A DNA stretch of 64,000 nucleotides from Candidatus Aminicenantes bacterium (GCA_046483285.1 JAWODN010000046.1:12888-76887); one strand, 5' to 3'; numbered from the stretch's first letter, positions 10,075-50,079 are shown. Program-made: numbers and translations. The notes: generated by a model from the sequence alone, not told the origin.

Positions 10075-10352
10075 CCGGGCCGCGCACCCGCTTCGACTGG
10101 AACCGCCCCTGCGTAACATGGACAGTAAGCTCGGGTGAGGCTGTCCTGCAGCACAAGAAACGGCCTTGCTGCCGCTGCTACCTTCCGGTCCTGACGGGAT
10201 TCACAAAGCGTCCTTTGCACAGGGCCCGCACCGTCATCACCACTTATCCATGCCCAGTCCAGAAGAAGCCCAGCCTCAGCCGGGAATTCAACCTCACTGC
10301 AGCGGATTGTGAGTCACAGGGCACCGCTAACTCCCCGTCTAGCACGGCCCGG
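10075..10352 (-). ncRNA. ffs: Large bacterial SRP RNA (Alu + S domain)
   Basis: Minus strand starts CCGGGCCGTGCTAGACGGGGAGTTAGCGGTGCCCTGT...CAATCCGC (Bacillus scRNA-type Alu domain); domain IV GTGAATCCCGTCAGGACCGGAAGGTAGCAGC; 5'/3' ends pair; followed by T-tract. Confidence 0.93.
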
Positions 10353-15887: not shown

Positions 15888-15977
15888 GGAGGGATGGCCG
15901 AGTGGCTGAAGGCGGCGGTCTTGAAAACCGCATCACGAGAAATCGTGACGGGGGTTCGAATCCCTCTCCCTCCGCCA
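15888..15977 (+). tRNA. tRNA-Ser(TGA)
   Basis: GGAGGGA acceptor stem, anticodon loop CT-TGA-AA, long variable arm, GGTTCGAATCC, encoded CCA. Confidence 0.95.
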
Positions 15978-16079: not shown

Positions 16080-16173
<94 letters not shown>

Positions 16174-39339: not shown

Positions 39340-39628
39340 AACCCGTCTCCTTTTCTCTGATTCTCACTATAACCCGATATATATAACAGCTCCAGGTAAA
39401 AGTCAAACACCATACCGGGAGCCTGTCATTATAGAGGACGGCCCCGCCGCCGGTGCGGCCGCCCGCAGAACAAACCGCCGGCCATGAAAATGATTTATGA
39501 ACGGCATTTATGGAAAATGAGGCTTGTACCGGCTGTTCCTGCGGTTTAATTAATGATGACAGTCATTTCCGAACAGATGCCGGGAGGAAGGGATGGTGGA
39601 TGAGCCGGGCCCGTATGCAGGCTGAGCC

Positions 39629-39665
39629 AAAAAAAAAGGGTAAAGCCCGTCCGGGCTTTACCCTT
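39629..39665 (-). terminator. Intrinsic terminator of the hdr-kor-flavoprotein operon
   Basis: AAGGGTAAAGCCCG/CGGGCTTTACCCTT hairpin followed by T-tract on minus strand. Confidence 0.8.
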
Positions 39666-39680
39666 GTGATCAGCTTAAAA

Positions 39681-41348
39681 TTATCTCAGTGTGCCTTCAT
39701 ATTGAGCGGTCAGCTGACGTTTGCGGACATTTTCAGGGGTGTAGGTGGGAAGAATGACCGGCGCGATCCGGCCGGTTTTGATTCCGGCTTCTTCGATTTC
39801 CTGTTCATATCTATTGATGTGTTCCAGGGACAGTTCGCCCAAATTGACGGATTGGACATATTGGGAAGCGTTTACGCCGGCTCTCCGGCCGAACACGTTA
39901 TAGTCAAGAACCGAGTTTCCCATCAGGCGGTTGCGGCCGTGGACGCCCCCGGAGGCCTCTCCGGCCACATATAATCCCGGAATTGAGGATTCGCATTTGT
40001 CATTGATTTCGATTCCGCCGTTTTGATAATGAAGAGAAGGATAAATGAGCATAGGCTCTTTGGTGATATCAATACCGTAACGGAAGAACTGGCGGTGCAT
40101 GGCGGGGAATTCTTTTTTAATATATCCTTCCCCCAGAAGCATTTCTATAAGGGGAGAATCCAGCCATACCCCCACCCGGCCGCTGGGGGTTTTGATCCCG
40201 TTTCCTCTTTCCACGCATTCCCGGATAATGGCCGAGCTTTCCACATCCCGCGGTTCGCGCGGAAATACAAACAGCTCGCCGTCCTTGTTGAGCGGCTGCC
40301 CTCCGGCGCCCCGGATTTTTTCCGTGATCAAAAATCCGGCGATTTGTTCCGGGAAAATCGAACCGGTGGGGTGGTACTGCACCGAATCCATATACAGCAA
40401 TTTGGCTCCGGCGCGGTATGCCATGATCAGGCCGTCTCCGGTGGCCCCGTAATGATTGGTGGTGTCGAAGCCGCGGATATGAAGCCGGCCGTATCCGCCG
40501 GTGGCGATGATGGTTGATTTGGCCTTGACGGTGAAATATTCTTCCGTCTCCAGGTTGTAGAGAATTCCTCCGGCACATCGGCCCTGGTCATCCAGGATCA
40601 GCTCAATGGTGGGAGTGAATTCCAGAACCTTGATTTTATCCGGATGATTCCTGACTTCGTCCATCAAAGTGCGCATAATGATGGCCCCGGTGTAATCCCG
40701 GCAGGATAGCATGCGCTTGCGTGAAGTGCCGCCGCCGTGCAGCGCCTGGAAAGAACCGTCCTCATGCTTATCCCACACCACACCCAGGTCTTCCAGCCAT
40801 TTCACCACTTCAGGGGCATCATGGGTGAGCGCTTCAACCAGTTCAGGTTTGTTATCGAAATGGCCGCCTCCAATGGCATCCAAATAATGCCGCGGGGGGG
40901 AGTCCTGTTCTTTAACGGCGGCCTGCATGCCTCCCTGAGACATCATGGAATTGGCGTCTCCTATGCGCAGTTTGGTGGAAATAATGCTGCGGGCGCCTTT
41001 CTGCATGGCGGTGATGGCTGCGGCGCATCCGGCGCCGCCTCCGCCGATGATAAGAACGTCGGTTTCATAATCGGGAGAGGACAGATCAAACTTCTCCGGT
41101 TTGATCCGGGAATGGGATTCCAGCATGTCCGCCACTTCCGTGGTGATGATTTCCCCTTTGTTCGGGCCGATGTGAATTTTTTTCCGGGCGTCCGGCTTAT
41201 GGTCCGGATGAAATTTTTTCAATACATCTTCTCTTTCTTCCGCGCTCATGGGAGGGAATACCGGCTTTCCGGACTTGGCCAGTTCAAACCGCTTCTGACG
41301 GCCCTGGGCTAACTTATCGAGTGATTCTTTCATATATTCAGGATACAT
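39681..41348 (-). CDS. Fumarate reductase/succinate dehydrogenase-type flavoprotein subunit (soluble, non-covalent FAD)
   Basis: GGGGAG, SMMSQGG, QYHPT, ITEKIRG, PRDV, HYQNGG, HGRNRLMGNS. Confidence 0.85.
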   Translation of the reverse strand: MYPEYMKESLDKLAQGRQKRFELAKSGKPVFPPMSAEEREDVLKKFHPDHKPDARKKIHIGPNKGEIITTEVADMLESHSRIKPEKFDLSSPDYETDVLIIGGGGAGCAAAITAMQKGARSIISTKLRIGDANSMMSQGGMQAAVKEQDSPPRHYLDAIGGGHFDNKPELVEALTHDAPEVVKWLEDLGVVWDKHEDGSFQALHGGGTSRKRMLSCRDYTGAIIMRTLMDEVRNHPDKIKVLEFTPTIELILDDQGRCAGGILYNLETEEYFTVKAKSTIIATGGYGRLHIRGFDTTNHYGATGDGLIMAYRAGAKLLYMDSVQYHPTGSIFPEQIAGFLITEKIRGAGGQPLNKDGELFVFPREPRDVESSAIIRECVERGNGIKTPSGRVGVWLDSPLIEMLLGEGYIKKEFPAMHRQFFRYGIDITKEPMLIYPSLHYQNGGIEINDKCESSIPGLYVAGEASGGVHGRNRLMGNSVLDYNVFGRRAGVNASQYVQSVNLGELSLEHINRYEQEIEEAGIKTGRIAPVILPTYTPENVRKRQLTAQYEGTLR

Positions 41349-41388
41349 AAGACACTCCTTCTTGATTCAAAGTTTGATATTTCATGAT

Positions 41389-42090
41389 TTATTCTTCAGT
41401 ATCTCTTGCGTAATATTTCGTCTTCAACTTATCCTTGTCCGCCTTCATCAATTCTTCAAATTCATCTTTGAAAGCACCTTCTTCAACTTCTTTAACCCTC
41501 TGGTCTAATTCTTTGCTTTGGGGAGAAAGATACTTTCCGTACAGCCGCTTGGCCAAAATCCCCACATTGTATTGAATGATTTCTGCGGGACATCTGATCG
41601 CACATAAACCGCAGCAGAGGCAGTCGAAAGAAAGGTCCATGACCTGTTCGATATCTCCCCGCTTGGCGGCTTGGATGTAATCCATGACTTCGAGGTCCTG
41701 AGGGCATGCCTTGGTGCAGGAGTTGCAGGCCACACAGCGGAAAACTTCCGGATAATAGGTCTGAATGGTTTCCACTTCCGGTTTTATTTTGTCCATGTCA
41801 TATATGGCCTTATGCGAGGGGATCGCGGGAAGCTGTGCCAGCCACATGCCTTCTTCCACCAGGGTGGTGCAGGCCAAACCGGTGTAAATTTTATAATCGC
41901 CGGGGAGGCGGTATACCGTCGCGCACGCACCGCAAAAACCTTCCCGGCACCCGGCGCCCCGCTTGATCAGGTAACCGGCATACTCAATGGCGCCCATAAT
42001 TGTTGATTTGGAAGGCACTTTGTAAGCCGCCCCCATGATATAGACGGTGGTGAAGTCATTCTGTTCTTTATTGTTCTTTTGGGCTGTCAT
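41389..42090 (-). CDS. SdhB/FrdB-like iron-sulfur subunit (2Fe-2S + two 4Fe-4S)
   Basis: GCREGFCGAC...LAC; CVACNSCTKACP; CLCCGLCAIRCP. Confidence 0.85.
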   Translation of the reverse strand: MTAQKNNKEQNDFTTVYIMGAAYKVPSKSTIMGAIEYAGYLIKRGAGCREGFCGACATVYRLPGDYKIYTGLACTTLVEEGMWLAQLPAIPSHKAIYDMDKIKPEVETIQTYYPEVFRCVACNSCTKACPQDLEVMDYIQAAKRGDIEQVMDLSFDCLCCGLCAIRCPAEIIQYNVGILAKRLYGKYLSPQSKELDQRVKEVEEGAFKDEFEELMKADKDKLKTKYYARDTEE

Positions 42091-42101
42091 ATTTTCCTCC
42101 G

Positions 42102-42548
42102 TTAGGCCTTTATATCCAGGCCGCCCTGCGCTGATTTCTCTTCGGGCAGATTCAATGGCCCCAAATTTCTGACTTTATCGGTGAATTCGTTTATAACCGA
42201 GACGAATTTCTTCCCTTCAGCCGCGGATACCCATTCAAGCCTGAGTCTTTCCGGTTCGATACCGAAACCGGAAAGAATCTTTTCCAGCATTTTAATCCGG
42301 CGGAGAGTCTTGTAATTTCCATCAATGTAATGACAGTCACCGGGATGGCATCCGCCGATAAAAACGCCGTCTGCTCCCTGTTTGAAAGCCCACAGCACAT
42401 GCTGAGGATCCACCCGGGATGAGCACATGACCCGAATCATAACGCTGTTCGGCATATACTCCATGCGGGAAGTGCCTGCGAGGTCGGCGCCTGCGGAAGT
42501 GCACCAATTGCAGGCGAAGCTGATGATTTTAGGTTCGAATTTAGCCAT
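42102..42548 (-). CDS. mvhD: MvhD/FlpD 2Fe-2S subunit
   Basis: FACNWC..GADLAG, RVMCSSRV, GCHPGDCHY, WVSAAEG. Confidence 0.92.
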   Translation of the reverse strand: MAKFEPKIISFACNWCTSAGADLAGTSRMEYMPNSVMIRVMCSSRVDPQHVLWAFKQGADGVFIGGCHPGDCHYIDGNYKTLRRIKMLEKILSGFGIEPERLRLEWVSAAEGKKFVSVINEFTDKVRNLGPLNLPEEKSAQGGLDIKA

Positions 42549-44515
42549 TATGATTCAATTTCTCCTTTCAAAATGCTGTCGACCATGGAATAGATTTGAT
42601 CGTCGGTATAATTTTTCTGTTGGGCCGCGCCGGAAGGGCAGGCGGCGATACAGCATCCACAGCCTTCGCACAACACTTCATTGACAGTGACGATTCCTTT
42701 CTGCTCATCAAAAATCCGGGCTTCGTAGGGGCAGACCGGAATGCATAAGCGGCAGCCGCTGCAGACATCTTCATCCACAACCGCCACAATCGGGTCGTGA
42801 AAAAGTTCGTCGGAAGCGAACATGGCTTGAACCTTGCTTGCCGCTCCGCTGGCTTGAGCCACCGCCTCAGGAATATCTTTGGGGGCCTTTCCGGCTCCGG
42901 CCAGGAAAAGACCGGAAATAACACTTTCCACCGGGCGAAGCTTAGGATGGGCTTCTGATAAAAATCCGTCTTTATCCGTTCCCAATTTGAGGGTTTTTAC
43001 AATTTCTTCGGTTCCTTTGGAGGGCTTCATGGCCATGGCCAGAACCACCATATCGGCGTTGATTTCCACGTCTTTACCGGAAAGGGTATCCACTCCCCAC
43101 ACCTTCAATTTTCCGTTTTCTTCAAAGACCCTGGACACTTTCCCTCTTAAGTAGACAACATCGTCATCTTCTATGGCCCGCTGCACAAATTCTTCGTAAT
43201 TTTTTCCTCCTGAACGGATGTCAATATAAAATATATAGGCCTGGCCGTCAGGCACATGATGTTTGTAAAGCATGGCATGCTTGGAGGTGTACATGCAGCA
43301 GATTTTAGAGCAGTAGGATTTATGCATTTCCGGGTCTCTGGATCCGACACACTGAATAAAAACCACTTCCTTGGGGACTTTGTGGTCGGACGGTCTTAGA
43401 ACCTGGCCCATGGTGGGACCGGATGCCGACAGCAATCTTTCGAATTCAAGGCCGTTGAGGACATCGGGGTATTTCCCATAACCGTATTCGGCGATTTGGT
43501 CTTTCCCGTAAAGGTCGTATCCGGTGGCCACCACTAGGGCTCCCACTTCCTCCTCTATGATTTCCGGCTTCATGTCATAATCTATGGCTTTGGGCTCGCA
43601 AACATCAGCGCATTTTCCGCAGGCGATGGGAACGAACCCCGGACAATTTTCAGCGTCGATAGTAAAAGTCGCTGGTATTGCTTGAGGGAAGGGGATGTAA
43701 ATCGCTTTTCTTCCGGTCATGCTTTCATCAAATTCATTGGGAACCACCACCGGGCAGACTTCGGTGCAGTCATCGCAGAGTGTGCAAAGATTGGGATCCA
43801 CATAGGTCGGCTTTTTCAAAATTTTCACCTTGAAATTGCCCACATATCCGGAAATCTCCTTAACTTCACTGTACGTCATCAATTTGATTTTGGGGTGCTT
43901 GGAAACCTCCACCATTTTTGGGGTCATTATGCACTGCGAACAGTCAAGAGTAGGAAAAGTTTCGGATAACTGGATCATATGGCCGCCGATGGAGGGGGAT
44001 TTTTCCACCAGAATCACCTCATGGCCGGCATTGGCGATGTCCAAGGCGGCTTGAATACCGCTGATTCCGCCTCCCACCACCAGCGCTCTCTTGGTGACCG
44101 GAACGCTGATCGGCTGAAGGGATTCATTTCTGCGCACTTTTTCCACGATGCTGCGGGTGATCTTGACGGCCTTGTCGGTGGATTGTTTTTTGTCCTTGTG
44201 AACCCAGCTGCACTGTTCACGGATGTTGGCGATTTCGCACTGATAAGGGTTCAAACCGGAGGATTCCGTGACTCGACGGAAAGTGCTTTCATGAAGGTTC
44301 GGTGAGCAGCAAGCCACCACAACACTCTCCAGGTTGTGTTCTTTAATGGCTTCCTCGATGCATTTTTGGCCTGGATCGGAACACATGTACACATAATCTT
44401 CCGCATGGACCACATCTTCGTTTTTGGAGAGTTCTTCGGCCACTTTTTTCACGTCGACGGTTCCGGCAATGTTGATACCGCAATGGCAAACAAAAACTCC
44501 TGTCCTTTTTTTCAT
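42548..44515 (-). CDS. hdrA: Heterodisulfide reductase subunit A
   Basis: VFVCHCGINI, NIREQCSWVH, GGGISG, TFPTLDCSQC, CVGSRD, CSKICCMY, HPKLRP, C-terminal ferredoxin. Confidence 0.95.
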   Translation of the reverse strand: MKKRTGVFVCHCGINIAGTVDVKKVAEELSKNEDVVHAEDYVYMCSDPGQKCIEEAIKEHNLESVVVACCSPNLHESTFRRVTESSGLNPYQCEIANIREQCSWVHKDKKQSTDKAVKITRSIVEKVRRNESLQPISVPVTKRALVVGGGISGIQAALDIANAGHEVILVEKSPSIGGHMIQLSETFPTLDCSQCIMTPKMVEVSKHPKIKLMTYSEVKEISGYVGNFKVKILKKPTYVDPNLCTLCDDCTEVCPVVVPNEFDESMTGRKAIYIPFPQAIPATFTIDAENCPGFVPIACGKCADVCEPKAIDYDMKPEIIEEEVGALVVATGYDLYGKDQIAEYGYGKYPDVLNGLEFERLLSASGPTMGQVLRPSDHKVPKEVVFIQCVGSRDPEMHKSYCSKICCMYTSKHAMLYKHHVPDGQAYIFYIDIRSGGKNYEEFVQRAIEDDDVVYLRGKVSRVFEENGKLKVWGVDTLSGKDVEINADMVVLAMAMKPSKGTEEIVKTLKLGTDKDGFLSEAHPKLRPVESVISGLFLAGAGKAPKDIPEAVAQASGAASKVQAMFASDELFHDPIVAVVDEDVCSGCRLCIPVCPYEARIFDEQKGIVTVNEVLCEGCGCCIAACPSGAAQQKNYTDDQIYSMVDSILKGEIES

Positions 44516-44599
44516 AGTATTACCTTATAATAAGATTTCTTGAATTCTCCTTAAAAAAGAATCCAATAAAACAATTCCATAGGGTTTGACGGTTTGTCT

Positions 44600-45148
44600 T
44601 CACTTATTCTCATCCAGGGTTTTTAATCCGTATTCGTAACCACGGTCAAAAGCCGTTTGATTCAGCTCGAGAAACCGGTCCGGGACCAGCCCTGGAAGCG
44701 CTTTTTTCATAACATCCGGGGCGGTGATCTTTGTGACGGAGGTGAAAAACCCCATCATCACCAGGTTGGCGATAATCCGGTTTCCCAACTCTTCGGCGAT
44801 TCGGGTTGACGGAACGGCATAATGCTTGATTTGTCCCCGGACGGCTTTAAACTTCACCAAATCCTTGTCCGTGATCAGGATGCCGTCTTCCCGAAGTTCA
44901 GGTTCATACTTGTCAAAGGCTTCCTGAGACATGGACACCAGAATCTCAGGCCGTGTGATATAGGGATAGAGAACTCTTTCATCCGACACAACCAATTGGG
45001 AACTGCAGGCGCTCCCCCGGGCTTCGGGACCAAAGCTTTGGTTCATGGTGGCGAATTTGTTCCCATACAGCGAAAGAGCTTTTCCTGCAATGAGGGCACA
45101 GCGGATAATCCCCTGGCCTCCAAATCCGGAAAATCTAATCTCAGTCAT
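44600..45148 (-). CDS. korC: 2-oxoacid:ferredoxin oxidoreductase gamma subunit
   Basis: IRFSGFGGQGI, SFGPEARG; start reassigned to MTEIRF. Confidence 0.85.
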   Translation of the reverse strand: MTEIRFSGFGGQGIIRCALIAGKALSLYGNKFATMNQSFGPEARGSACSSQLVVSDERVLYPYITRPEILVSMSQEAFDKYEPELREDGILITDKDLVKFKAVRGQIKHYAVPSTRIAEELGNRIIANLVMMGFFTSVTKITAPDVMKKALPGLVPDRFLELNQTAFDRGYEYGLKTLDENK

Positions 45149-46013
45149 CGTTATCTCCGTAAGGTTGATATTTATCTCCGAGAACACGGGACATATGAGT
45201 GTTCATTGAATCAAGGAATGTCGGCTTGTCTTTATCAACGAATTTTCCGACAATGAGTTTTCCCTGATAATTGATATCGAGGGTATCTGTTGGGGCACCG
45301 TGCTGAATCTCAGAGTTATCATAATAATATTTTAAAAGATTCAAGCCGTCTCCCAAGCGGTTCCTTCTTGCATACAAGGTCACGCAGGGGGTTATGACTT
45401 CGATAAAGGAGAACCCCTTTTTATTAAGCGCTTCCTGAATGGATTTAGTCACCCGGCGCAGATGCAGTGCCGTCCAGCGGGCGATGTAAGTGGCACCAGA
45501 GGCTTCAACCAGCCGGGGGAGGTTAAAAGCATATTCGAAATTGCCGTAGGGCGCAGTCGAAGCGTTTGCCTGAAGGGGAGTGGTCGCCGCCACCTGGCCT
45601 CCTGTCATAGCGTAATTGAAATTATTGACACAGATCACCACCAAATCCATGTTGCGGCGGGCGGCGTGAATGAGATGATTTCCTCCGATTCCAGCAATAT
45701 CTCCGTCGCCGCTGAAGACAATCACTTTCATTTTGGGGGCGGCCAGCTTTAGGCCGGTGGCAAAAGGCAGAGCCCGTCCGTGGGTGGAATGGAAAGAATC
45801 CAATTTAACGTATCCGGCAACCCGGCCGGTGCATCCAATGCCGGAGACCACCGCGAGCCGGTCCAAATCGTATTGTTCTTTTCGTATGGCTTCGGCAAAA
45901 GACGTCACCACGGTTCCGATTCCGCAGCCCGGACACCAAATGTGAGGGATGCGGTCCATTCGGAGCATCTTTTCAATCGGATTTTCTTCTTTTTGAACGG
46001 GAGTGTTATTCAT
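45141..46013 (-). CDS. korB: 2-oxoacid:ferredoxin oxidoreductase beta subunit
   Basis: WCPGCG, SGIGC, HGRA, TPP motif GDGD...NN, MTGGQ. Confidence 0.88.
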   Translation of the reverse strand: MNNTPVQKEENPIEKMLRMDRIPHIWCPGCGIGTVVTSFAEAIRKEQYDLDRLAVVSGIGCTGRVAGYVKLDSFHSTHGRALPFATGLKLAAPKMKVIVFSGDGDIAGIGGNHLIHAARRNMDLVVICVNNFNYAMTGGQVAATTPLQANASTAPYGNFEYAFNLPRLVEASGATYIARWTALHLRRVTKSIQEALNKKGFSFIEVITPCVTLYARRNRLGDGLNLLKYYYDNSEIQHGAPTDTLDINYQGKLIVGKFVDKDKPTFLDSMNTHMSRVLGDKYQPYGDNDD

Positions 46014-47182
46014 TGTGCGGCCTCCTTAATGGCGTTGAGAATATCGTTGGGATCATGAACCCATCCGCCGAGATGGGGGACACCCTGCACCCGGCACTTT
46101 CCTTTGGATGCCCGGTCCACTTCCAAAACGATTTGGCCGGCGTTGATTTCCGGCACCACAAACGCGTTGATTTTTCCGGCCAGCTCGAGAATGCGCTTTT
46201 CAGGAAACGGCCATACCGTGATCAGGCGGAGGGTTCCCACCTTGATGCCCTCTCTTCTGGCATTCTGTACGGCTTTTATGGCGACACGGGAAGTGATTCC
46301 ATAGGAAATAACCACCACGTCGGCGCCATCAATCTGGTCTTCATCGTATCTGATGATTTTATCTACGTTTTTTTCAATTTTATCGATGAGGTGCTGCACA
46401 TTGACTTGTTGACATTCAGCGTTGATGACCGGATATCCTTTTTCGTCGTGAGTTAAGCCGGTGGTATGGAAACGGTATCCGTCTCCGGCCTTGATCATGA
46501 ACGGGACACCATTCTCGTCGGGCTTGTAAGGAAGATATTCCTCTTTCGGTCCTTCGTACCATTTCCTTTCCACGATTTCAATTTCCTCGGGGGGAGGAAT
46601 CACCACTTTTTCGTGCATATGCCCCACGCATTCATCCGTCATGACTAAAACCGGAACCCGGTAGGTTTCCGCCAAATTGAAGGCCTCCACAGTCAAATCA
46701 AAGCATTCCTGGGGTGAATCCGGAGAGAGCGCGATAATACGGTAATCTCCGTGCGAACCCCACCGGGCCTGCATCATGTCCTGCTGGCCGGTGAGGGTGG
46801 GAAGTCCCGTGGACGGCCCGCCCCGTTGAACGTTGGCCACGACAAGGGGGGTTTCCATCATTACGGCCAGTCCGATATTTTCCATCATTAAGGAAAATCC
46901 GGGGCCGGAAGTGACGGTCATTGGCTTTTTGCCGCCCCAGGATGCTCCGACAAGAGCCGCCATCGAAGCCAACTCATCTTCCATTTGAATGAAAACACCG
47001 CCGATAGTGGGGATCCTTTCAGCGAACCGTTCTGCGGTTTCCGTGGAGGGGGTGATGGGGTAACCGGCGAAAAACCGGCTTCCCGCAGCCAATCCGCCTT
47101 CAGCCAGGGCATAGTCGCCGTCCATGAAATGGGACCCGGTCAAAACTCCTTTAGGATCTGCTTTGCGTTTTTTCAACGTCAT
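46010..47182 (-). CDS. korA: 2-oxoacid:ferredoxin oxidoreductase alpha subunit
   Basis: FAGYPITP, QMEDE, TSGPGFSLMME, QRGGPSTGLPT. Confidence 0.88.
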   Translation of the reverse strand: MTLKKRKADPKGVLTGSHFMDGDYALAEGGLAAGSRFFAGYPITPSTETAERFAERIPTIGGVFIQMEDELASMAALVGASWGGKKPMTVTSGPGFSLMMENIGLAVMMETPLVVANVQRGGPSTGLPTLTGQQDMMQARWGSHGDYRIIALSPDSPQECFDLTVEAFNLAETYRVPVLVMTDECVGHMHEKVVIPPPEEIEIVERKWYEGPKEEYLPYKPDENGVPFMIKAGDGYRFHTTGLTHDEKGYPVINAECQQVNVQHLIDKIEKNVDKIIRYDEDQIDGADVVVISYGITSRVAIKAVQNARREGIKVGTLRLITVWPFPEKRILELAGKINAFVVPEINAGQIVLEVDRASKGKCRVQGVPHLGGWVHDPNDILNAIKEAAQ

Positions 47183-47423
47183 CCTCCTTCTTAACGGTTA
47201 CGAAAACAGCAAATTCCGGACATATTGTCTCGCAAAGCTGACAATAGCAGCAGTCAGATTCGTTTTTCACAAACGGGGGATGATATCCCTTCACGTTAAA
47301 CTCTTCCGACATTTCCAAAACATCCCTGGGACAATATTCCACACAAAAGCCACATCCTTTACAGCGGTCTATTTCGATGTGGATTTCTCCTATAATCGGT
47401 TTTAATTCGCCAAAATAAATCAT
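47151..47423 (-). CDS. korD: 2[4Fe-4S] ferredoxin-like delta subunit
   Basis: CKGCGFCVEYCP; CCYCQLCETICPEFA. Confidence 0.85.
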   Translation of the reverse strand: MIYFGELKPIIGEIHIEIDRCKGCGFCVEYCPRDVLEMSEEFNVKGYHPPFVKNESDCCYCQLCETICPEFAVFVTVKKEDDVEKTQSRS

Positions 47424-47430
47424 TTGTTCC

Positions 47431-48312
47431 TCACATCAATCCTTTTTCTTTTAATATGGGCGCGGGATCGATAAAGTGAAGGTTCAACTTCAAGCTTTCT
47501 TGATCACAGCCCAGAGCAATCGCCAGCAGCTGAGAGAAATACATGATGGGAATAGACTTGAAATCAGGATATATCTTAAGGGTCTGCTTCTGCCTGTGAT
47601 CCAGGTTGAACGCGCACAAGGGGCAGCTGACCGCCACCACATCGGCCCCTTGCCGGACAGCGGAGGTGAGAATCTGGCGGGTCCGGTCGGCTATAATTTC
47701 AGGGTTGTCTACGGTCTTGTAAGCGCCGCAGCATTCGGTTTTATGGGGAAAATCAACGGGTTCTCCTCCCAGCGCGGTGACCAGGTCGTCCATGACCACG
47801 GGATTTTCCAAATCATCGAAGCCGACTTCTTTGGGGCGCACCAGATAACAACCGTAATAACTGGCGATTTTCAGATTTTTTAAAGGCTTGGTGACTTTAC
47901 CGGCCAGCCCCTGGAAGGTGATTTCATCTCTCAGAAGTTCCAGCATATGATAAACCTTGACGTCACCTTGATATTTGACCTCTTCGCGGTACATGAGATC
48001 ATTGATGATTTCCAGGCTTTCAGAGTCGTTTTGGACTCGCTGGTTGGCCCGCTTCAATGTGTTGTAACACATAGCGCAAAGAGTTATGACGCTGTCATCG
48101 GTCTTTGCTTCTTTCACGCGGATGAGGTTTCGAATGGGAGCCAGGTGGTGGATAAGGTCATCCGTGGCCATTGAAAATACCGTTCCGCAGCAATTCCAGC
48201 GGCTGAGTTCTTTTACCTCTATTCCCAGCGTTTTCAGAGCACATAAAGCCGAATCTTCAAAGTTTTTTGCATGATTCTTTAAAGTACACCCGGGATAATA
48301 ACTTAACTTCAT
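47431..48312 (-). CDS. hdrB: Heterodisulfide reductase subunit B (two CCG domains)
   Basis: YYPGC, WNCCG, CAMCY, YYGC, ECCG, SCPLC. Confidence 0.92.
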   Translation of the reverse strand: MKLSYYPGCTLKNHAKNFEDSALCALKTLGIEVKELSRWNCCGTVFSMATDDLIHHLAPIRNLIRVKEAKTDDSVITLCAMCYNTLKRANQRVQNDSESLEIINDLMYREEVKYQGDVKVYHMLELLRDEITFQGLAGKVTKPLKNLKIASYYGCYLVRPKEVGFDDLENPVVMDDLVTALGGEPVDFPHKTECCGAYKTVDNPEIIADRTRQILTSAVRQGADVVAVSCPLCAFNLDHRQKQTLKIYPDFKSIPIMYFSQLLAIALGCDQESLKLNLHFIDPAPILKEKGLM

Positions 48313-48372
48313 TATAATTTTTCCTCACTAAAAATGAGATTAAAACTGATTGAAACCATACCAATGATAAAG

Positions 48373-48780
48373 CTAAGATGTCATTTTCCGGAAACAGCTT
48401 ATGAGGGCAATGGGGGGGACATCCATTTTTTCTTCATCGGACATTTTTTCCACCTTGACAAAATCTTCCCGTTTGCGGAGAAGAATTTGACGGATGGCCT
48501 CGATCACTTCAGCAATATTGATGCCTTTGGGACAGCGGACATTGCAGGTCATGCATGAAGCGCAGTTCCAAATGGACTGGGAATGGAACAGGTCCTCTTT
48601 CATTCCCAGTTGGGCCATCCTGATTATCTGATTGGGCAGAATGTCCATTTGGGATACGGCCGGACAGCCTGCGGAGCACTTTCCGCATTGATAACAGGTA
48701 AGGAGGTCCTGACCGCTGAGTTCTTCAACTTTCAGGATAAAAGGATCCTTCATTCGTTGGCGGGAAATATTAATTTTCAT
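48373..48780 (-). CDS. hdrC: Heterodisulfide reductase subunit C
   Basis: CYQCGKCSAGCP; IWNCASCMTCNVRCP. Confidence 0.92.
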   Translation of the reverse strand: MKINISRQRMKDPFILKVEELSGQDLLTCYQCGKCSAGCPAVSQMDILPNQIIRMAQLGMKEDLFHSQSIWNCASCMTCNVRCPKGINIAEVIEAIRQILLRKREDFVKVEKMSDEEKMDVPPIALISCFRKMTS

Positions 48781-48816
48781 ATGATACTCCCTTTTAGAAG
48801 CTGTGAATTAACAAAG

Positions 48817-48897
48817 CCTGGGTTATTCATAATAAAAAGGTGACGGCGGCTCCTGCGCCGCGCACCTGCGGCAATCACGGCCGGCTCATCATCCAGG
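48817..48897. mobile_element. 81-bp minimal MITE-like element upstream of hdrC
   Basis: Ends CCTGGGTTATTCAT / CTCATCATCCAGG; TGCGCCGCGCACCTGCGGCAATC matches ~9989-10011. Confidence 0.55.
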
Positions 48898-49055
48898 ATA
48901 GATATGATACATAATATATATAAATCCTTTGAAACAAAGATAACAGTACAGCACAATTGATATTATCTGTCAAGAAATAACCTGGGTTATTTATAAAAAA
49001 ATACTCATTCTGTCCGTGCCGGCCGGATGGCCGCAGAGGCGGTGAGGCCTTCTGC

Positions 49056-49125
49056 TTTTCTCGCCTTTCCCGCCTTTCTCGCCCTCTCCAAACCAGACAA
49101 ACCAGATAAACCAGATAGACGAAAT
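49056..49125. repeat. Two adjacent 9-bp-period tandem repeats
   Basis: (YTTTCYCGC)x3 then (AAACCAGAY)x3. Confidence 0.6.
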
Positions 49126-49164
49126 GGACATTTTTTGTTATTTTTAAATGAATAGGAGGAAAAT

Positions 49165-50079
49165 ATGTTAAAAAAATCAATAAGGAAAGTTGCGGGAACG
49201 GCCGGGGTATTTTTGTTGGCGGCTTCTTTGTCATGGGGAGGTTTTCTCCGGGATGGACAGGAGGGAGAAGATTTAAAATCCCTCTTACCGGATATCTCCG
49301 GATGGAAAATGATGGAAGAACCCCGGTATTATCTTCCGGAATCGCTTTTTGAGTACATCAACGGGGCGGCGGAAAGTTATTTATCTTATGATTTTCAAAA
49401 ATTAGTGGTTGTCCAATATGAGATTGAAGACGGAGGCAGCAATGTCTCTTTGGAAATTTATGATATGGAGAAACCCCTGAAAGCATTTGGAATATACAGT
49501 GCCGAACGGTTCCCTGATAACCGTTTTGTTGATATCGGGACCCAGGGCTATTTAGAAGAAGGGATTTTAAATTTTTTAGCCGGGCGGTATTACGTGAAAA
49601 TGCTTTGCTTCGATTGCGGCGAAGACTGGAGTGACTATCTCAAAACATTCGCAGGGCGAATTGAGGAAAAAATCGGAGGGGAGTTTGAATTTCCTGCCCC
49701 CGCAAAAGCTTTTCCGGATGAAAATTTGATTGCCAACAGTCAGAAATTCATTCTGGAAAATTTCATGGGTTACGGATATCTTCACAGCGGTTATCAAGCC
49801 GATTACGAAATCAATGGCAATGAATTCACCGCATTCATTATCCAAGGAACGGATGAGGAGGATGCCCAGCATATGCTTGAGCAGTATCTGGATTCAAAAA
49901 AAGATCAGAAGACCGGCCAGACCGATGCTGTTCATCATATCAAAGACAGATACTATCATAATATTTATATCACCCGGACGGGGTCCTATGTATGCGGGGC
50001 AATGAAAATTCAGGACGGCATGGAGGATACCGGAAAATCTTACCTGGACAGCCTGGCGGAAAATATCAAAAAATTGTGA
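49165..50079 (+). CDS. DUF6599-like exported protein
   Basis: Signal peptide; LFEYINGAAESY, LEIYDM..AFGIYS; SD AGGAGG. Confidence 0.75.
   Translation: MLKKSIRKVAGTAGVFLLAASLSWGGFLRDGQEGEDLKSLLPDISGWKMMEEPRYYLPESLFEYINGAAESYLSYDFQKLVVVQYEIEDGGSNVSLEIYDMEKPLKAFGIYSAERFPDNRFVDIGTQGYLEEGILNFLAGRYYVKMLCFDCGEDWSDYLKTFAGRIEEKIGGEFEFPAPAKAFPDENLIANSQKFILENFMGYGYLHSGYQADYEINGNEFTAFIIQGTDEEDAQHMLEQYLDSKKDQKTGQTDAVHHIKDRYYHNIYITRTGSYVCGAMKIQDGMEDTGKSYLDSLAENIKKL

What the first reader, a model, noticed from the sequence alone, without database searches (positions are those of the whole stretch)
39681..48780. Ten-gene Hdr-Kor-MvhD-fumarate reductase operon: candidate soluble electron-bifurcating/confurcating complex
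Seen: hdrC-hdrB-korD-korA-korB-korC-hdrA-mvhD-FeS-flavoprotein, one strand, short or overlapping junctions (largest gap ~84 bp), closed by a clear intrinsic terminator at 39629-39665. Established: HdrA FAD is a bifurcating centre usually fed through MvhD by MvhAG hydrogenase, formate dehydrogenase or the NADH-linked Flx module; none of these is in this window. Inference: the donor slot next to MvhD is filled by a soluble Frd/Sdh AB pair and the ferredoxin side by a 2-oxoacid (probably 2-oxoglutarate) oxidoreductase. Low-potential electrons from 2-oxoglutarate could then drive endergonic succinate oxidation (+33 mV couple) onto a disulfide at HdrB, giving a membrane-independent oxidative TCA branch. 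In reverse, thiol electrons could be split to fumarate and ferredoxin for reductive carboxylation. I know of no biochemically characterised complex with this composition.
Basis: partly seen in the sequence, partly recalled or inferred. Interest (0 to 1): 0.85.

Follow-up and report, generated by a model that had tools for sequence, protein, structure and literature searches.

The report
Hdr-coupled soluble fumarate reductase–Kor operon
An uncultured Aminicenantes bacterium carries a ten-gene operon that joins an electron-splitting heterodisulfide-reductase module to a soluble fumarate reductase and a 2-oxoacid:ferredoxin enzyme; the same gene set recurs in many phyla and has been proposed, but never shown at the bench, to drive the reductive half of the TCA cycle.

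Summary
Ten co-directional genes lie at 48780-39681 on the minus strand: hdrC, hdrB, korDABC, hdrA, mvhD, an SdhB-like FeS protein and a Frd/Tfr-like flavoprotein, closed by a strong terminator.

- **Conservation:** the FeS-flavoprotein pair recurs in 98 loci from many bacterial and archaeal phyla. It nearly always sits with hdrCB, usually with hdrA and mvhD, and often with kor, fumarase, sucCD and mdh.
- **Donor modules:** 49 of 55 loci with hdrA and mvhD also encode a donor module: Flx-like (NAD(P)H), MvhAG hydrogenase or an FrhB-like FeS protein. This window is the rare form with none in cis. Its MvhD groups with hydrogenase-linked MvhDs, and an MvhAG hydrogenase lies elsewhere in the genome.
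- **Docking:** a complex model places the FeS protein on HdrB and HdrC, not on MvhD. Together these subunits read as a split TfrB.
- **Direction:** the flavoprotein has Asn where Sdh/Frd enzymes bind FAD covalently through His. That favours fumarate reduction over succinate oxidation.

My best reading is a donor-dependent, HdrA-bifurcating fumarate/ferredoxin reductase that feeds Kor in the reductive TCA branch. Two papers proposed this from genomes (PMC6315080, PMC7282089). My searches found no biochemical characterisation.

The parts
48373..48780 (-). hdrC-like, 135 aa, two [4Fe-4S] motifs; short form with a family-specific conserved C-terminal tail
   Evidence: P122, R131 and K132 are invariant in 37 of 37 sequences. 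Tail residues 110-134 contact the FeS protein in the model.
47431..48312 (-). hdrB-like, 293 aa, two complete CCG motifs (C9...C41C42...C79xxC82 and C155...C194C195...C230xxC233)
   Evidence: The only PDB relatives by sequence are methanogen HdrB chains. The N-terminal CCG region contacts the FeS protein in the model.
47151..47423 (-). korD, 90 aa, 2x[4Fe-4S] delta subunit
46010..47182 (-). korA, 2-oxoacid:acceptor oxidoreductase alpha subunit
   Evidence: NF006412 scores 563 bits against a cut-off of 411. The best named PDB relatives are 2-keto acid/2-oxoglutarate enzymes.
45141..46013 (-). korB, TPP-binding beta subunit
44600..45187 (-). korC, gamma subunit; the true start is probably at residue 14
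42548..44515 (-). hdrA, 655 aa, full-length
   Evidence: It aligns 3-649 to 4-650 of the 654-residue HdrA chain of entry 5ODC, at 736 bits.
42102..42548 (-). mvhD (FlpD), 148 aa, of the hydrogenase-linked lineage
   Evidence: and the trees.
41389..42090 (-). SdhB/TfrB-N-like FeS protein, 233 aa, with one [2Fe-2S] motif and two [4Fe-4S] motifs
   Evidence: A natural fusion to the flavoprotein exists (P0122). It docks on HdrB and HdrC in the model.
39681..41348 (-). Frd/Tfr-like flavoprotein, 555 aa. It has a conserved 94-aa N-terminal extension, no Succ_DH_flav_C domain, Asn133 at the covalent-FAD site, and H326, R346, H440 and R474 at the dicarboxylate site.
39626..39665 (-). intrinsic terminator closing the operon

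Best explanation
The operon encodes a soluble, Hdr-based redox complex whose high-potential end is a Tfr-like fumarate reductase.

**Shown by sequence.**
- All subunits and cofactor motifs of HdrABC-MvhD are present.
- A four-subunit 2-oxoacid:ferredoxin oxidoreductase is present.
- An SdhB-like FeS protein is present.
- A Frd-type flavoprotein with an intact dicarboxylate site is present. It lacks the histidine for covalent FAD.

**Inferred.**
- The FeS-flavoprotein pair docks on HdrB and HdrC. Together these four subunits equal a split thiol:fumarate reductase.
- Electrons then run from the HdrA flavin through HdrC and the HdrB clusters to the FeS protein, the flavoprotein FAD and fumarate.
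- A reductant enters at MvhD and is bifurcated at the HdrA flavin to fumarate (about +30 mV) and ferredoxin (about -450 to -500 mV).
- Sister operons encode that reductant module in cis: an NAD(P)H-type Flx-like module, an MvhAG hydrogenase, or an FrhB-like FeS protein. This operon encodes none. The likeliest donor here is H2, through the MvhAG hydrogenase on contig C124.
- The reduced ferredoxin is used by Kor to carboxylate succinyl-CoA. The operon would thus supply the two hard steps of the reductive TCA branch (fumarate to succinate, and succinyl-CoA to 2-oxoglutarate), with the first step paying for the second.

**Left open.**
- Whether Kor is physically bound or only shares ferredoxin.
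- Whether a diffusible thiol takes part at HdrB.
For: **Identity of the parts.** Searches give the families and motifs. HdrA aligns end to end with the HdrA chain of entry 5ODC, at 736 bits.

**Fumarate as substrate.**
- H326, R346, H440 and R474 are invariant in 48 of 48 family members. They align with the Frd/Sdh dicarboxylate site.
- The predicted fold (mean pLDDT 88.4) matches E. coli FrdA best, with E = 5e-35 and TMq 0.67.
- Fumarase genes lie within 10 kb in 16 of 98 loci, sucCD in 13 and mdh in 7. At least one of these is present in 27 of 98.
- This is the only Frd/Sdh-type flavoprotein found in the 91%-complete genome. The other FAD_binding_2 gene is nadB, next to nadC.

**Direction.** Asn133 replaces the covalent-FAD histidine in all 48 sequences.

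**Docking on HdrBC.**
- In NCBIfam the TfrB model NF004898 is hit collinearly: the FeS protein covers model positions 19-186 and HdrB covers 263-484.
- hdrC-hdrB-FeS-flavoprotein occurs without hdrA, for example in L044-46, L081, L102 and L103.
- The complex model of HdrB, HdrC, MvhD and FeS scored 0.91, against 0.00 for the best of 3 controls. That mark was reached by 58 of 80 solved complexes and 2 of 110 mismatched pairs. These counts hold only roughly here, because I used my own alignments and four chains. The runs agree in at least 83% of contacts, and the partner's pLDDT is at least 78.
- Confident contacts are only with HdrB 8-14, 38-43, 54-61 and 106-109, and with HdrC 110-134.
- No solved complex pairing an HdrB with an SdhB-like protein was detectable by sequence.

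**A donor is expected.**
- Of 55 loci with hdrA+mvhD, 28 carry Flx-like genes, 12 MvhAG, 9 the FrhB-like FeS protein and 6 none.
- The window's MvhD falls in a 20-row group with all 13 MvhAG-linked MvhDs (SH-aLRT 87).
- In the careful tree it sits in a starred 15-row clade (97/90). Of those 15 loci, 8 carry mvhG or mvhA.
- An MvhA/VhuA-like gene and a VhuG-like gene lie on C124. The MvhA-like protein is 59-69% identical to the cis-encoded MvhA of L068, L072, L069, L071, L076 and L088.

**Pathway context in the genome.** Mdh-FumB-SucCD lie on C114, FumA on C108, and a citryl-CoA synthetase-like pair plus citryl-CoA lyase on C67.

**Literature.** The same association has been read as one complex feeding OGOR and Tfr (PMC6315080, passages). 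It has also been read as ferredoxin-reducing fumarate reduction (PMC7282089, passages).

**Expression (weak).** Contigs from four RNA-library runs lie on all ten genes. One contig bridges korD and hdrB.
Against: - No donor module lies in cis.
- The C124 hydrogenase has its own MvhD, an HdrA::NuoG-like protein and a NuoF. It looks self-contained.
- MvhA orthologues occur in 5 of 5 genomes with the donor-less operon and in 4 of 5 with the Flx-type operon. There is therefore no complementary pattern pointing to a trans partnership.
- The MvhD grouping is only moderately supported in the tree that includes C124 (SH-aLRT 87, not starred).
- Every subunit scores below the NCBIfam equivalog cut-offs for TfrA and for CoB-CoM Hdr.
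- Kor's substrate is not established. The OGOR-specific models fall below their cut-offs, and a second korDABC-like set sits next to fumA on C108.
- A citrate synthase is present, so 2-oxoglutarate might also be made oxidatively. I did not test for IDH.
- The direction argument from non-covalent FAD is by analogy only.
- The complex model cannot show electron flow. An unnamed MvhD contact is not excluded.
- The RNA-library contigs do not prove transcription or a single transcript.
Confidence: 0.5

Rival explanations
1. This is a non-bifurcating electron sink. Kor oxidises 2-oxoglutarate, for example from glutamate fermentation. The ferredoxin electrons run downhill through HdrA, HdrC, HdrB, the FeS protein and the flavoprotein to fumarate. 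No third substrate is involved, and MvhD is structural or vestigial.
For: - The operon encodes no donor module.
- kor is kept in the donor-less Aminicenantia loci L032, L038, L048 and L066.
- Non-covalent FAD fits fumarate reduction.
- No new component is needed.
Against: - A full bifurcation-type HdrA and a conserved MvhD are retained.
- About 0.5 V would be wasted.
- 49 of 55 related hdrA+mvhD loci carry a donor module.
- 11 of the 28 Flx-, FrhB-like- or MvhAG-free... more plainly: many carrier loci have no kor at all. Among loci with hdrA, kor is absent in 6 Flx-type, 7 FrhB-like-type and 5 MvhAG-type loci.
Confidence: 0.17
2. A thiol/disulfide couple at HdrB is the two-electron donor, and its electrons are split between fumarate and ferredoxin.
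For: - Both CCG motifs of HdrB are complete.
- Methanogen Tfr uses thiols (Heim 1998, seen only as a citation in PMC6315080).
- Thermodynamically, a couple near -200 mV would sit midway between fumarate and ferredoxin (recalled potentials).
Against: - No thiol carrier or second Hdr that could recycle the disulfide is in the operon.
- In solved Hdr complexes the HdrBC arm is the high-potential exit, not the entry (recalled).
- The model puts the FeS protein right on HdrB's N-terminal CCG region, which suggests a direct wire.
- Related loci carry dedicated donor modules.
Confidence: 0.1
3. The genes are co-regulated but the enzymes are physically separate. A Tfr-like fumarate reductase (HdrBC, FeS protein and flavoprotein), an HdrA-MvhD unit and Kor share an operon only because they serve one pathway.
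For: - Gene order is shuffled between phyla.
- The hdrCB-FeS-flavoprotein core exists without hdrA or kor.
- kor is present in only 30 of 80 loci.
Against: - HdrA needs HdrC as its exit in all solved Hdr complexes (recalled).
- There is only one hdrCB pair, and the model commits it to the FeS protein.
- hdrA co-occurs in 51 of 80 loci.
Confidence: 0.12
4. Low-potential electrons from 2-oxoglutarate drive succinate oxidation onto a disulfide at HdrB, giving a membrane-free oxidative TCA branch.
For: - No membrane-bound Sdh was found in the genome.
- Citrate synthase is present.
Against: - Asn133 sits at the covalent-FAD site in 48 of 48 members. Non-covalent Frd-type flavoproteins do not oxidise succinate appreciably (recalled).
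- Succinate at +30 mV cannot serve as the mid-potential donor of a bifurcation.
- Related loci carry reductant-input modules and reductive-branch genes.
Confidence: 0.04

Closest known systems
MvhAGD-HdrABC of methanogens (solved, e.g. entry 5ODC)
   Same: HdrA aligns over its full length, at 736 bits. HdrB has both CCG motifs and matches only methanogen HdrB chains in the PDB. MvhD is present and belongs to the hydrogenase-linked lineage.
   Different: - No mvhAG lies in cis.
- HdrC is short: 135 aa, matching only model positions 3-79 of 144.
- All subunits score below the CoB-CoM Hdr equivalog cut-offs.
- The organism is a bacterium, and I did not look for CoM or CoB.
- An SdhB-like protein is predicted to sit on HdrB.
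Thiol:fumarate reductase TfrAB of Methanothermobacter (Heim 1998; seen only as a citation)
   Same: The best NCBIfam model for the flavoprotein is TfrA, at 357 bits. The FeS protein and HdrB together cover the TfrB model collinearly. FAD is predicted to be non-covalent.
   Different: - TfrB is split into two genes, and an HdrC is added.
- The flavoprotein has a conserved 94-aa N-terminal extension and lacks the C-terminal domain.
- Its score is below the TfrA cut-off of 718.
- The electron donor is unknown.
korABCD-tfrAB-flxABCD-hdrABC rTCA clusters of tubeworm symbionts and Thioflavicoccus mobilis (PMC6315080, passages read)
   Same: The same gene families are interspersed in one cluster, and the same idea is proposed: one complex feeding OGOR and fumarate reductase. 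Gallionella loci with FeS-flavoprotein-hdrCB-korDABC-hdrA-mvhD-flxCBA have a flavoprotein 73-75% identical to the window's.
   Different: - The window lacks flxABC.
- I did not fetch the published clusters themselves, so equivalence is inferred from the description.
- The genome carries citryl-CoA synthetase/lyase-like genes rather than an ACL in the cluster.
'Succinate operon' of Pseudoclostridium thermosuccinogenes (PMC7282089, passages read; the 2019 preprint it cites was not read)
   Same: Fumarase, Flx-Hdr and a fumarate reductase share one operon, and fumarate reduction is proposed to be coupled to ferredoxin reduction. Clostridial loci L121-L124 show hdrB-hdrC-hdrA-mvhD-flxCBA-FeS-flavoprotein.
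   Different: That operon has Flx and no kor. The window has kor and no Flx.
Type E succinate:quinone oxidoreductase / MFR (SdhABE)
   Same: The CCG-domain subunit is related: SdhE model NF042965 scores 170.9 bits. The SdhB-like protein has a second [4Fe-4S] motif in place of the 3Fe-4S motif.
   Different: The score is far below the SdhE cut-off of 500. There is no covalent-FAD histidine. HdrA, HdrC and MvhD are present. I did not check the HdrB-like protein for membrane-binding features.

Membership tests
Thiol:fumarate reductase (TfrAB) | Frd/Sdh-type flavoprotein with a dicarboxylate-binding His/Arg set | tested here: met
   H326, R346, H440 and R474 are invariant and aligned to Sdh/Frd/NadB structures. 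The fold matches FrdA.
Thiol:fumarate reductase (TfrAB) | Scores above the NCBIfam TfrA equivalog cut-off | tested here: not met
   357.4 bits against a cut-off of 718. The match covers model positions 6-427 of 546 only.
Thiol:fumarate reductase (TfrAB) | TfrB as a single polypeptide: an SdhB-like FeS domain plus two CCG domains | tested here: not met
   It is split. The FeS protein hits TfrB model positions 19-186 and HdrB hits 263-484.
Thiol:fumarate reductase (TfrAB) | CoM-SH plus CoB-SH as electron donor | not testable with these tools
   This needs an enzyme assay. I did not search for CoM or CoB biosynthesis genes.
HdrABC-MvhD flavin-based bifurcating complexes | Full-length HdrA with FAD and ferredoxin domains | tested here: met
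   It aligns 3-649 to 4-650 of 654 in 5ODC chain A.
HdrABC-MvhD flavin-based bifurcating complexes | HdrB with two complete CCG motifs, and HdrC with two [4Fe-4S] motifs | tested here: met
   The equivalog cut-offs are not reached, however: HdrB 185.7 against 345, and HdrC 77.2 against 160.
HdrABC-MvhD flavin-based bifurcating complexes | An electron-input module (MvhAG, Fdh or Flx) partnered with MvhD | tested here: not met
   No MvhAG or Flx module was found in the operon or window. No Fdh search was run. MvhAG is present in trans on C124, but partnership is untested.
Published kor-tfr-flx-hdr cluster type (PMC6315080) | korABCD and tfrAB interspersed with hdrABC and flxD | tested here: met
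Published kor-tfr-flx-hdr cluster type (PMC6315080) | flxABC NADH-dehydrogenase genes in the cluster | tested here: not met
   They are absent here. They are present in 7 of 18 same-phylum loci and in 31 of 98 loci overall.
2-oxoglutarate:ferredoxin oxidoreductase (KorABCD) | Four subunits: alpha, beta, gamma and delta | tested here: met
2-oxoglutarate:ferredoxin oxidoreductase (KorABCD) | Specificity for 2-oxoglutarate | tested here: inconclusive
   The generic 2-oxoacid alpha model is above its cut-off (563 against 411). The OGOR-specific models are below theirs: alpha 380 against 579, beta 232 against 364, delta 68 against 125. The best named PDB relatives include 2-oxoglutarate synthase.
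Type E succinate:quinone oxidoreductase | Covalent FAD histidine, and an SdhE anchor scoring above its cut-off | tested here: not met
   Asn133 sits at the His position. The SdhE model scores 170.9 against a cut-off of 500.

The most novel reading that the evidence does not exclude
In a large share of non-methanogens, the 'heterodisulfide reductase' HdrBC may not be a disulfide reductase at all. It may be a docking wire for a split Tfr-type fumarate reductase. Mvh-, Flx- or FrhB-like-Hdr complexes would then be H2- or NAD(P)H-dependent, electron-bifurcating fumarate/ferredoxin reductases with interchangeable donor cassettes. In Aminicenantia the particle would borrow a hydrogenase encoded in trans and hand its ferredoxin straight to a co-encoded 2-oxoglutarate synthase. 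That would be a bifurcation-powered reductive TCA branch.
Probability: 0.35. Interest if true: 0.8.

Novelty: new variant of a known kind. Interest (0 to 1): 0.55.

Why it matters
What Hdr, Mvh and Flx complexes reduce in bacteria and non-methanogenic archaea is an acknowledged open question. PMC6472368 (passage read) states that the role of group 3c hydrogenases outside methanogens 'remains unresolved' although they co-occur with Hdr.

The comparative picture here gives a concrete and testable answer for one large family. Fumarate would be the acceptor, reached through an FeS-flavoprotein pair docked on HdrBC, with swappable donor modules.

If that is right, fumarate reduction yields reduced ferredoxin instead of wasting the potential drop. 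That would change energy budgets for fermenters and make the reductive TCA branch cheaper. It would also add a new class to the short list of flavin-based bifurcating enzymes.

Tried and rejected
- **Literature:** 'bifurcating fumarate reductase' gave 0 papers. Aminicenantes plus Hdr plus fumarate reductase gave 2 papers, seen as listings only and apparently unrelated. HdrA, MvhD, fumarate reductase, 2-oxoglutarate and bifurcation together gave 6 papers, of which 5 were listed, none on this system. Aminicenantes plus Hdr plus 2-oxoglutarate gave 4 papers. I read passages of one (PMC6472368), and it does not mention this operon.
- **Supplements:** these are closed. [quoted passage not shown] S5 of PMC6315080 hold that paper's model of the complex, and I could not see them.
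- **Complementary hydrogenase distribution:** I looked for MvhA only in genomes with the donor-less operon. It is present in both kinds, 5 of 5 and 4 of 5, so this gives no support either way.
- **Gene adjacency as a guide to docking:** rejected. The gene upstream of FeS is fxA in 25 loci, hdrB in 18, mvhD in 10, hdrA in 7, the FrhB-like FeS gene in 7 and other or unknown in 23, out of 98.
- **RNA libraries:**
  - Only short Logan contigs were available.
  - One contig bridges a gene junction (korD/hdrB) with 31 or more letters on both sides.
  - The stretches outside the operon (39400-39680 and 48800-49300) had almost no cover, but lack of cover is not evidence.
  - The libraries may contain DNA.
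  - I therefore make no claim of a single transcript.
  - Runs with small shares say nothing about habitat.
- **L-aspartate oxidase for the flavoprotein:** considered and set aside. A bona fide nadB-nadC pair exists on C114, and the window gene always pairs with an SdhB-like FeS protein (78 of 80 loci).
- **APS-reductase-like (AprAB/Qmo) reading:** considered and set aside. AprA structures match only at E of about 1e-4.

**Rows dropped**
- Of the 21 genomes in the 401-genome phylum sample with a full-length orthologue, I fetched 18. I left out G000 itself, G374 (the gene sits at a contig end) and G074 (fragments).
- The search for related loci kept the best 80 of at least 598 confirmed stretches, so all counts describe the closest relatives only.
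- L074 was left out of the second MvhD tree because of its very long branch.

Full report
**What is there.** The minus strand between 48780 and 39681 carries ten ORFs with junctions of 60, 7, -32, -4, -47, 84, -1, 11 and 40 nt. Pfam and NCBIfam identify them as follows:
- an HdrC-like 2x[4Fe-4S] protein of 135 aa;
- an HdrB-like protein with two CCG domains, 293 aa;
- the delta, alpha, beta and gamma subunits of a 2-oxoacid:ferredoxin oxidoreductase;
- HdrA, 655 aa, scoring 846 bits to the HdrA2 model;
- MvhD/FlpD, 179 bits;
- a 233-aa FeS protein;
- a 555-aa FAD_binding_2 flavoprotein whose best model is TfrA, at 357 bits, below the cut-off of 718.

All expected cysteine motifs are intact. 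A 13-bp-stem terminator follows the last gene. The flanking genes are unrelated: glycine cleavage, glyQS, PilZ, DUF6599 and a GGDEF regulator. HdrA aligns end to end with the structurally solved HdrA of entry 5ODC.

**The organism.** The flavoprotein's nearest database relatives, at 82-100% identity, are named Candidatus Aminicenantes wherever a name is given. The window lies on contig C145 of a 2.9-Mb assembly of 149 contigs, 91% complete. It also holds a bacterial large SRP RNA.

**The flavoprotein and its FeS partner.**
- Aligned to Sdh, Frd and NadB structures, the four dicarboxylate-site residues are present: H326, R346, H440 and R474. The histidine that binds FAD covalently in Sdh/Frd is Asn133.
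- All five positions are invariant in 48 of 48 family members.
- The protein lacks the Succ_DH_flav_C domain and instead has a 94-residue N-terminal extension. That extension is conserved across the family (for example H47, P48 and D49) and is predicted with high confidence.
- The predicted fold matches E. coli FrdA best, with E = 5e-35 over about 450 columns.
- The FeS protein has a Cx4Cx2C [2Fe-2S] motif and two CxxCxxCxxxCP motifs. One database protein, P0122 (727 aa), is a natural fusion of the FeS protein and the flavoprotein.
- It is established but recalled enzymology that Frd-type flavoproteins without covalent FAD reduce fumarate but barely oxidise succinate.

**Conservation.**
- In a sample of 401 genomes of the phylum, 21 hold a full-length orthologue. 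I fetched 18 of these loci.
- Eleven of the 18 keep kor, hdr and FeS-flavoprotein in the window's order.
  - Four (L032, L037, L038, L048) match the window exactly in layout.
  - Seven have about 3 kb more between mvhD and the FeS gene. In L031 that stretch holds three genes: an FrhB-like FeS protein, a Fer4_22 protein and an NAD_binding_1/DHODB_Fe-S protein. Together these form an Flx-like NAD(P)H module. In all seven loci the gene after mvhD is the FlxC-like one.
- More distant members of the phylum show three other layouts:
  - hdrC-hdrB-hdrA-FeS-flavoprotein;
  - the same followed by mvhD-mvhG;
  - hdrC-hdrB-FeS-flavoprotein alone.
- A scan of one genome per species returned at least 598 related stretches. 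The best 80 come from Aminicenantes, Gallionella and Nitrosomonadales, Rhodomicrobiaceae, Cloacimonadota, Neomarinimicrobiota, Thermodesulfobacteriota, Clostridia, Treponema, Chloroflexota, Nitrospirales, Thermoplasmata, Bathyarchaeota and Theionarchaea.
- In those 80 loci the FeS gene accompanies the flavoprotein in 78. hdrB or hdrC is present in 60, hdrA in 51, mvhD in 45 and korA in 30.
- Gene order is shuffled between phyla. This argues for functional linkage rather than merely inherited linkage.

**Substrate and pathway.**
- Over all 98 loci, fumarase genes lie nearby in 16, sucCD in 13 and mdh in 7. At least one is present in 27.
- In the window's own genome the only other FAD_binding_2 enzyme is NadB, next to NadC. 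No canonical Sdh or Frd was found.
- Mdh-FumB-SucC-SucD form a cluster on C114. FumA sits on C108 beside a second korDABC-like set.
- C67 carries SucCD-like genes, a citryl-CoA lyase (252 bits against a cut-off of 212) and an aconitase-family gene. A citrate synthase lies on C60.
- The operon therefore supplies the fumarate-to-succinate step, and probably the succinyl-CoA-to-2-oxoglutarate step, of a TCA branch whose other enzymes are encoded elsewhere.

**Where the FeS-flavoprotein pair docks.** Four lines point to HdrBC instead.
1. The NCBIfam TfrB model is hit collinearly by the FeS protein (positions 19-186) and by HdrB (263-484). The two are a split TfrB.
2. The minimal recurring unit is hdrC-hdrB-FeS-flavoprotein.
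3. mvhD directly precedes the FeS gene in only 10 of 98 loci.
4. A four-chain complex model was run with HdrB, HdrC and MvhD, and with the FeS protein as the scored partner.
   - It scored 0.91, against 0.00 for the best of 3 controls.
   - The mark was reached by 58 of 80 solved complexes and 2 of 110 mismatched pairs. These counts hold only roughly here, because I used my own alignments and four chains.
   - The runs agree in at least 83% of contacts, and the partner's pLDDT is at least 78.
   - All confident contacts are with HdrB (8-14, 38-43, 54-61, 106-109, the N-terminal CCG region) and with the HdrC tail (110-134). No contact with MvhD is named.
   - That tail is specific to this HdrC family and contains the invariant residues P122, R131 and K132.
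   - No solved complex of an HdrB with an SdhB-like protein is detectable by sequence, so the pass is unlikely to come from memory of a solved structure.
   - The model supports binding but does not show it, and a contact with MvhD is not excluded.

**The donor.**
- Of the 55 loci that have both hdrA and mvhD, 28 carry Flx-like genes, 12 carry mvhG or mvhA, 9 carry a 362-aa FrhB-like FeS protein, and 6 carry none. The six are L032, L038, L048 and L066 (all Aminicenantia close to the window), plus L074 and L080.
- MvhD sequence tracks the donor type.
  - The 14 MvhDs followed directly by the FeS gene form one group (91/82 support).
  - That group lies inside a starred 15-row clade (97/90).
  - The 11 followed by the FrhB-like gene form a starred clade.
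- When relabelled by locus content, all 13 MvhAG-linked MvhDs, including the one on the window genome's contig C124, fall in one 20-row group with the window's MvhD (SH-aLRT 87).
- C124 encodes NuoF, an HdrA::NuoG-like protein, MvhD, a VhuG-like and a VhuA-like subunit, plus a group-3b-type hydrogenase.
- The C124 MvhA-like protein is 59-69% identical to the MvhA encoded inside the Hdr-FeS-flavoprotein clusters of L068, L072, L069, L071, L076 and L088.
- The window's complex may therefore be fed by that hydrogenase in trans. This is inference only. The hydrogenase has its own MvhD, and its orthologues occur in genomes with either operon type.

**Mechanism proposed.** The redox potentials below are recalled values.
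- A donor, H2 at -414 mV or NAD(P)H at -320 mV, delivers electrons through MvhD to the HdrA flavin.
- One electron goes downhill through HdrC, HdrB, the FeS protein and the flavoprotein FAD to fumarate, at about +30 mV.
- The other electron goes uphill to ferredoxin.
- Kor uses the reduced ferredoxin for reductive carboxylation of succinyl-CoA.
- Succinate cannot be the mid-potential donor of such a bifurcation.
- The main rival is a simple downhill 2-oxoglutarate-to-fumarate sink.

**What is known.**
- PMC6315080 (passages read) reports conserved interspersing of korABCD and tfrAB with flxABCD-hdrABC in the rTCA clusters of tubeworm symbionts and Thioflavicoccus mobilis. [quoted passage not shown]
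- PMC7282089 (passages read) describes a 'succinate operon' of fumarase, Flx-Hdr and fumarate reductase in P. thermosuccinogenes. It assumes ferredoxin-coupled fumarate reduction, citing a 2019 preprint that I did not read.
- My searches found no biochemical characterisation.

**What appears to be new here.**
- The breadth of the family.
- The three interchangeable donor cassettes, including MvhAG.
- The HdrA-free core.
- The predicted FeS-HdrB/HdrC interface.
- The donor-less Aminicenantia variant that this window represents.

**Expression.** Contigs from four metatranscriptome-type runs lie on all ten genes, many with no mismatch. One contig bridges korD and hdrB. This is weak evidence, because contigs cannot show a single transcript and RNA libraries can carry DNA.

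**Verdict.** The feature is real and conserved, and its biochemistry is uncharacterised. It is not unprecedented in print.

Noticed in passing
own genome, contig C124:9054-15631 (locus L130): A cluster of NuoF (610 aa), an HdrA C-terminal half fused to a HoxU/NuoG-like N-terminus (585 aa), MvhD, a VhuG-like and a VhuA-like [NiFe] hydrogenase subunit. It may be a NiFe hydrogenase coupled to NAD(P)H and ferredoxin. MvhA orthologues occur in 9 of 10 Aminicenantia genomes checked, including G000.
   Followed up: partly
own genome, contig C67:78445-83700 (locus L129): SucC-like (525 aa, extended) and SucD-like genes, then a citryl-CoA lyase (252 bits against a cut-off of 212) and an aconitase-family large subunit. 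This looks like a two-step citrate-cleavage (CCS/CCL) set, which hints at a reductive TCA cycle in an Aminicenantes genome.
   Followed up: partly
own genome, contig C108:10821-14555: The fumarase alpha subunit is directly followed by a second korD-korA-korB-korC-like set. Which of the two Kor enzymes is the 2-oxoglutarate enzyme remains open.
   Followed up: no
L039 (G342:C4:350794-363000): In this relative, the korA, korB and korC matches are broken into 3, 4 and 2 pieces at only 53-80% identity, and hdrA is 56% identical, while FeS and flavoprotein stay at 73-79%. The kor-hdrA part of the operon may be decaying or misassembled.
   Followed up: no
L056-L060 (Gallionella and Nitrosomonadales records): The flavoprotein is 71-75% identical to the Aminicenantes one across phyla, and the whole kor-hdr-flx set comes with it. 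This suggests horizontal transfer of the entire cluster into microaerophilic iron oxidisers.
   Followed up: no
L079, L093, L095, L116 (Thermodesulfobacteriota and 'Deltaproteobacteria' records): These large clusters run fumAB-hdrCB-hdrA-mvhD-flxCBA-FeS-flavoprotein-sucCD-korDABC, followed by a second flavoprotein copy. In L079, L095 and L116 a second hdrB follows as well.
   Followed up: no
L042 and L043 (G030, G060): The hdrA match is split into two halves about 1.4 kb apart, which may reflect an inserted domain or gene. mvhD-mvhG lies after the flavoprotein.
   Followed up: no
protein P0122 (727 aa, representative library): A natural fusion of the FeS protein (N-terminal, about 220 aa) to the flavoprotein.
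   Followed up: partly
window 10080-10347, 15888-15974 and 16083-16173: A bacterial large-type SRP RNA (172 bits) and two tRNA genes.
   Followed up: no
window 48875-49234 (minus strand): A 119-aa ORF just upstream of hdrC has no Pfam match. A weak terminator-like hairpin at 48861-48843 separates it from the operon.
   Followed up: no
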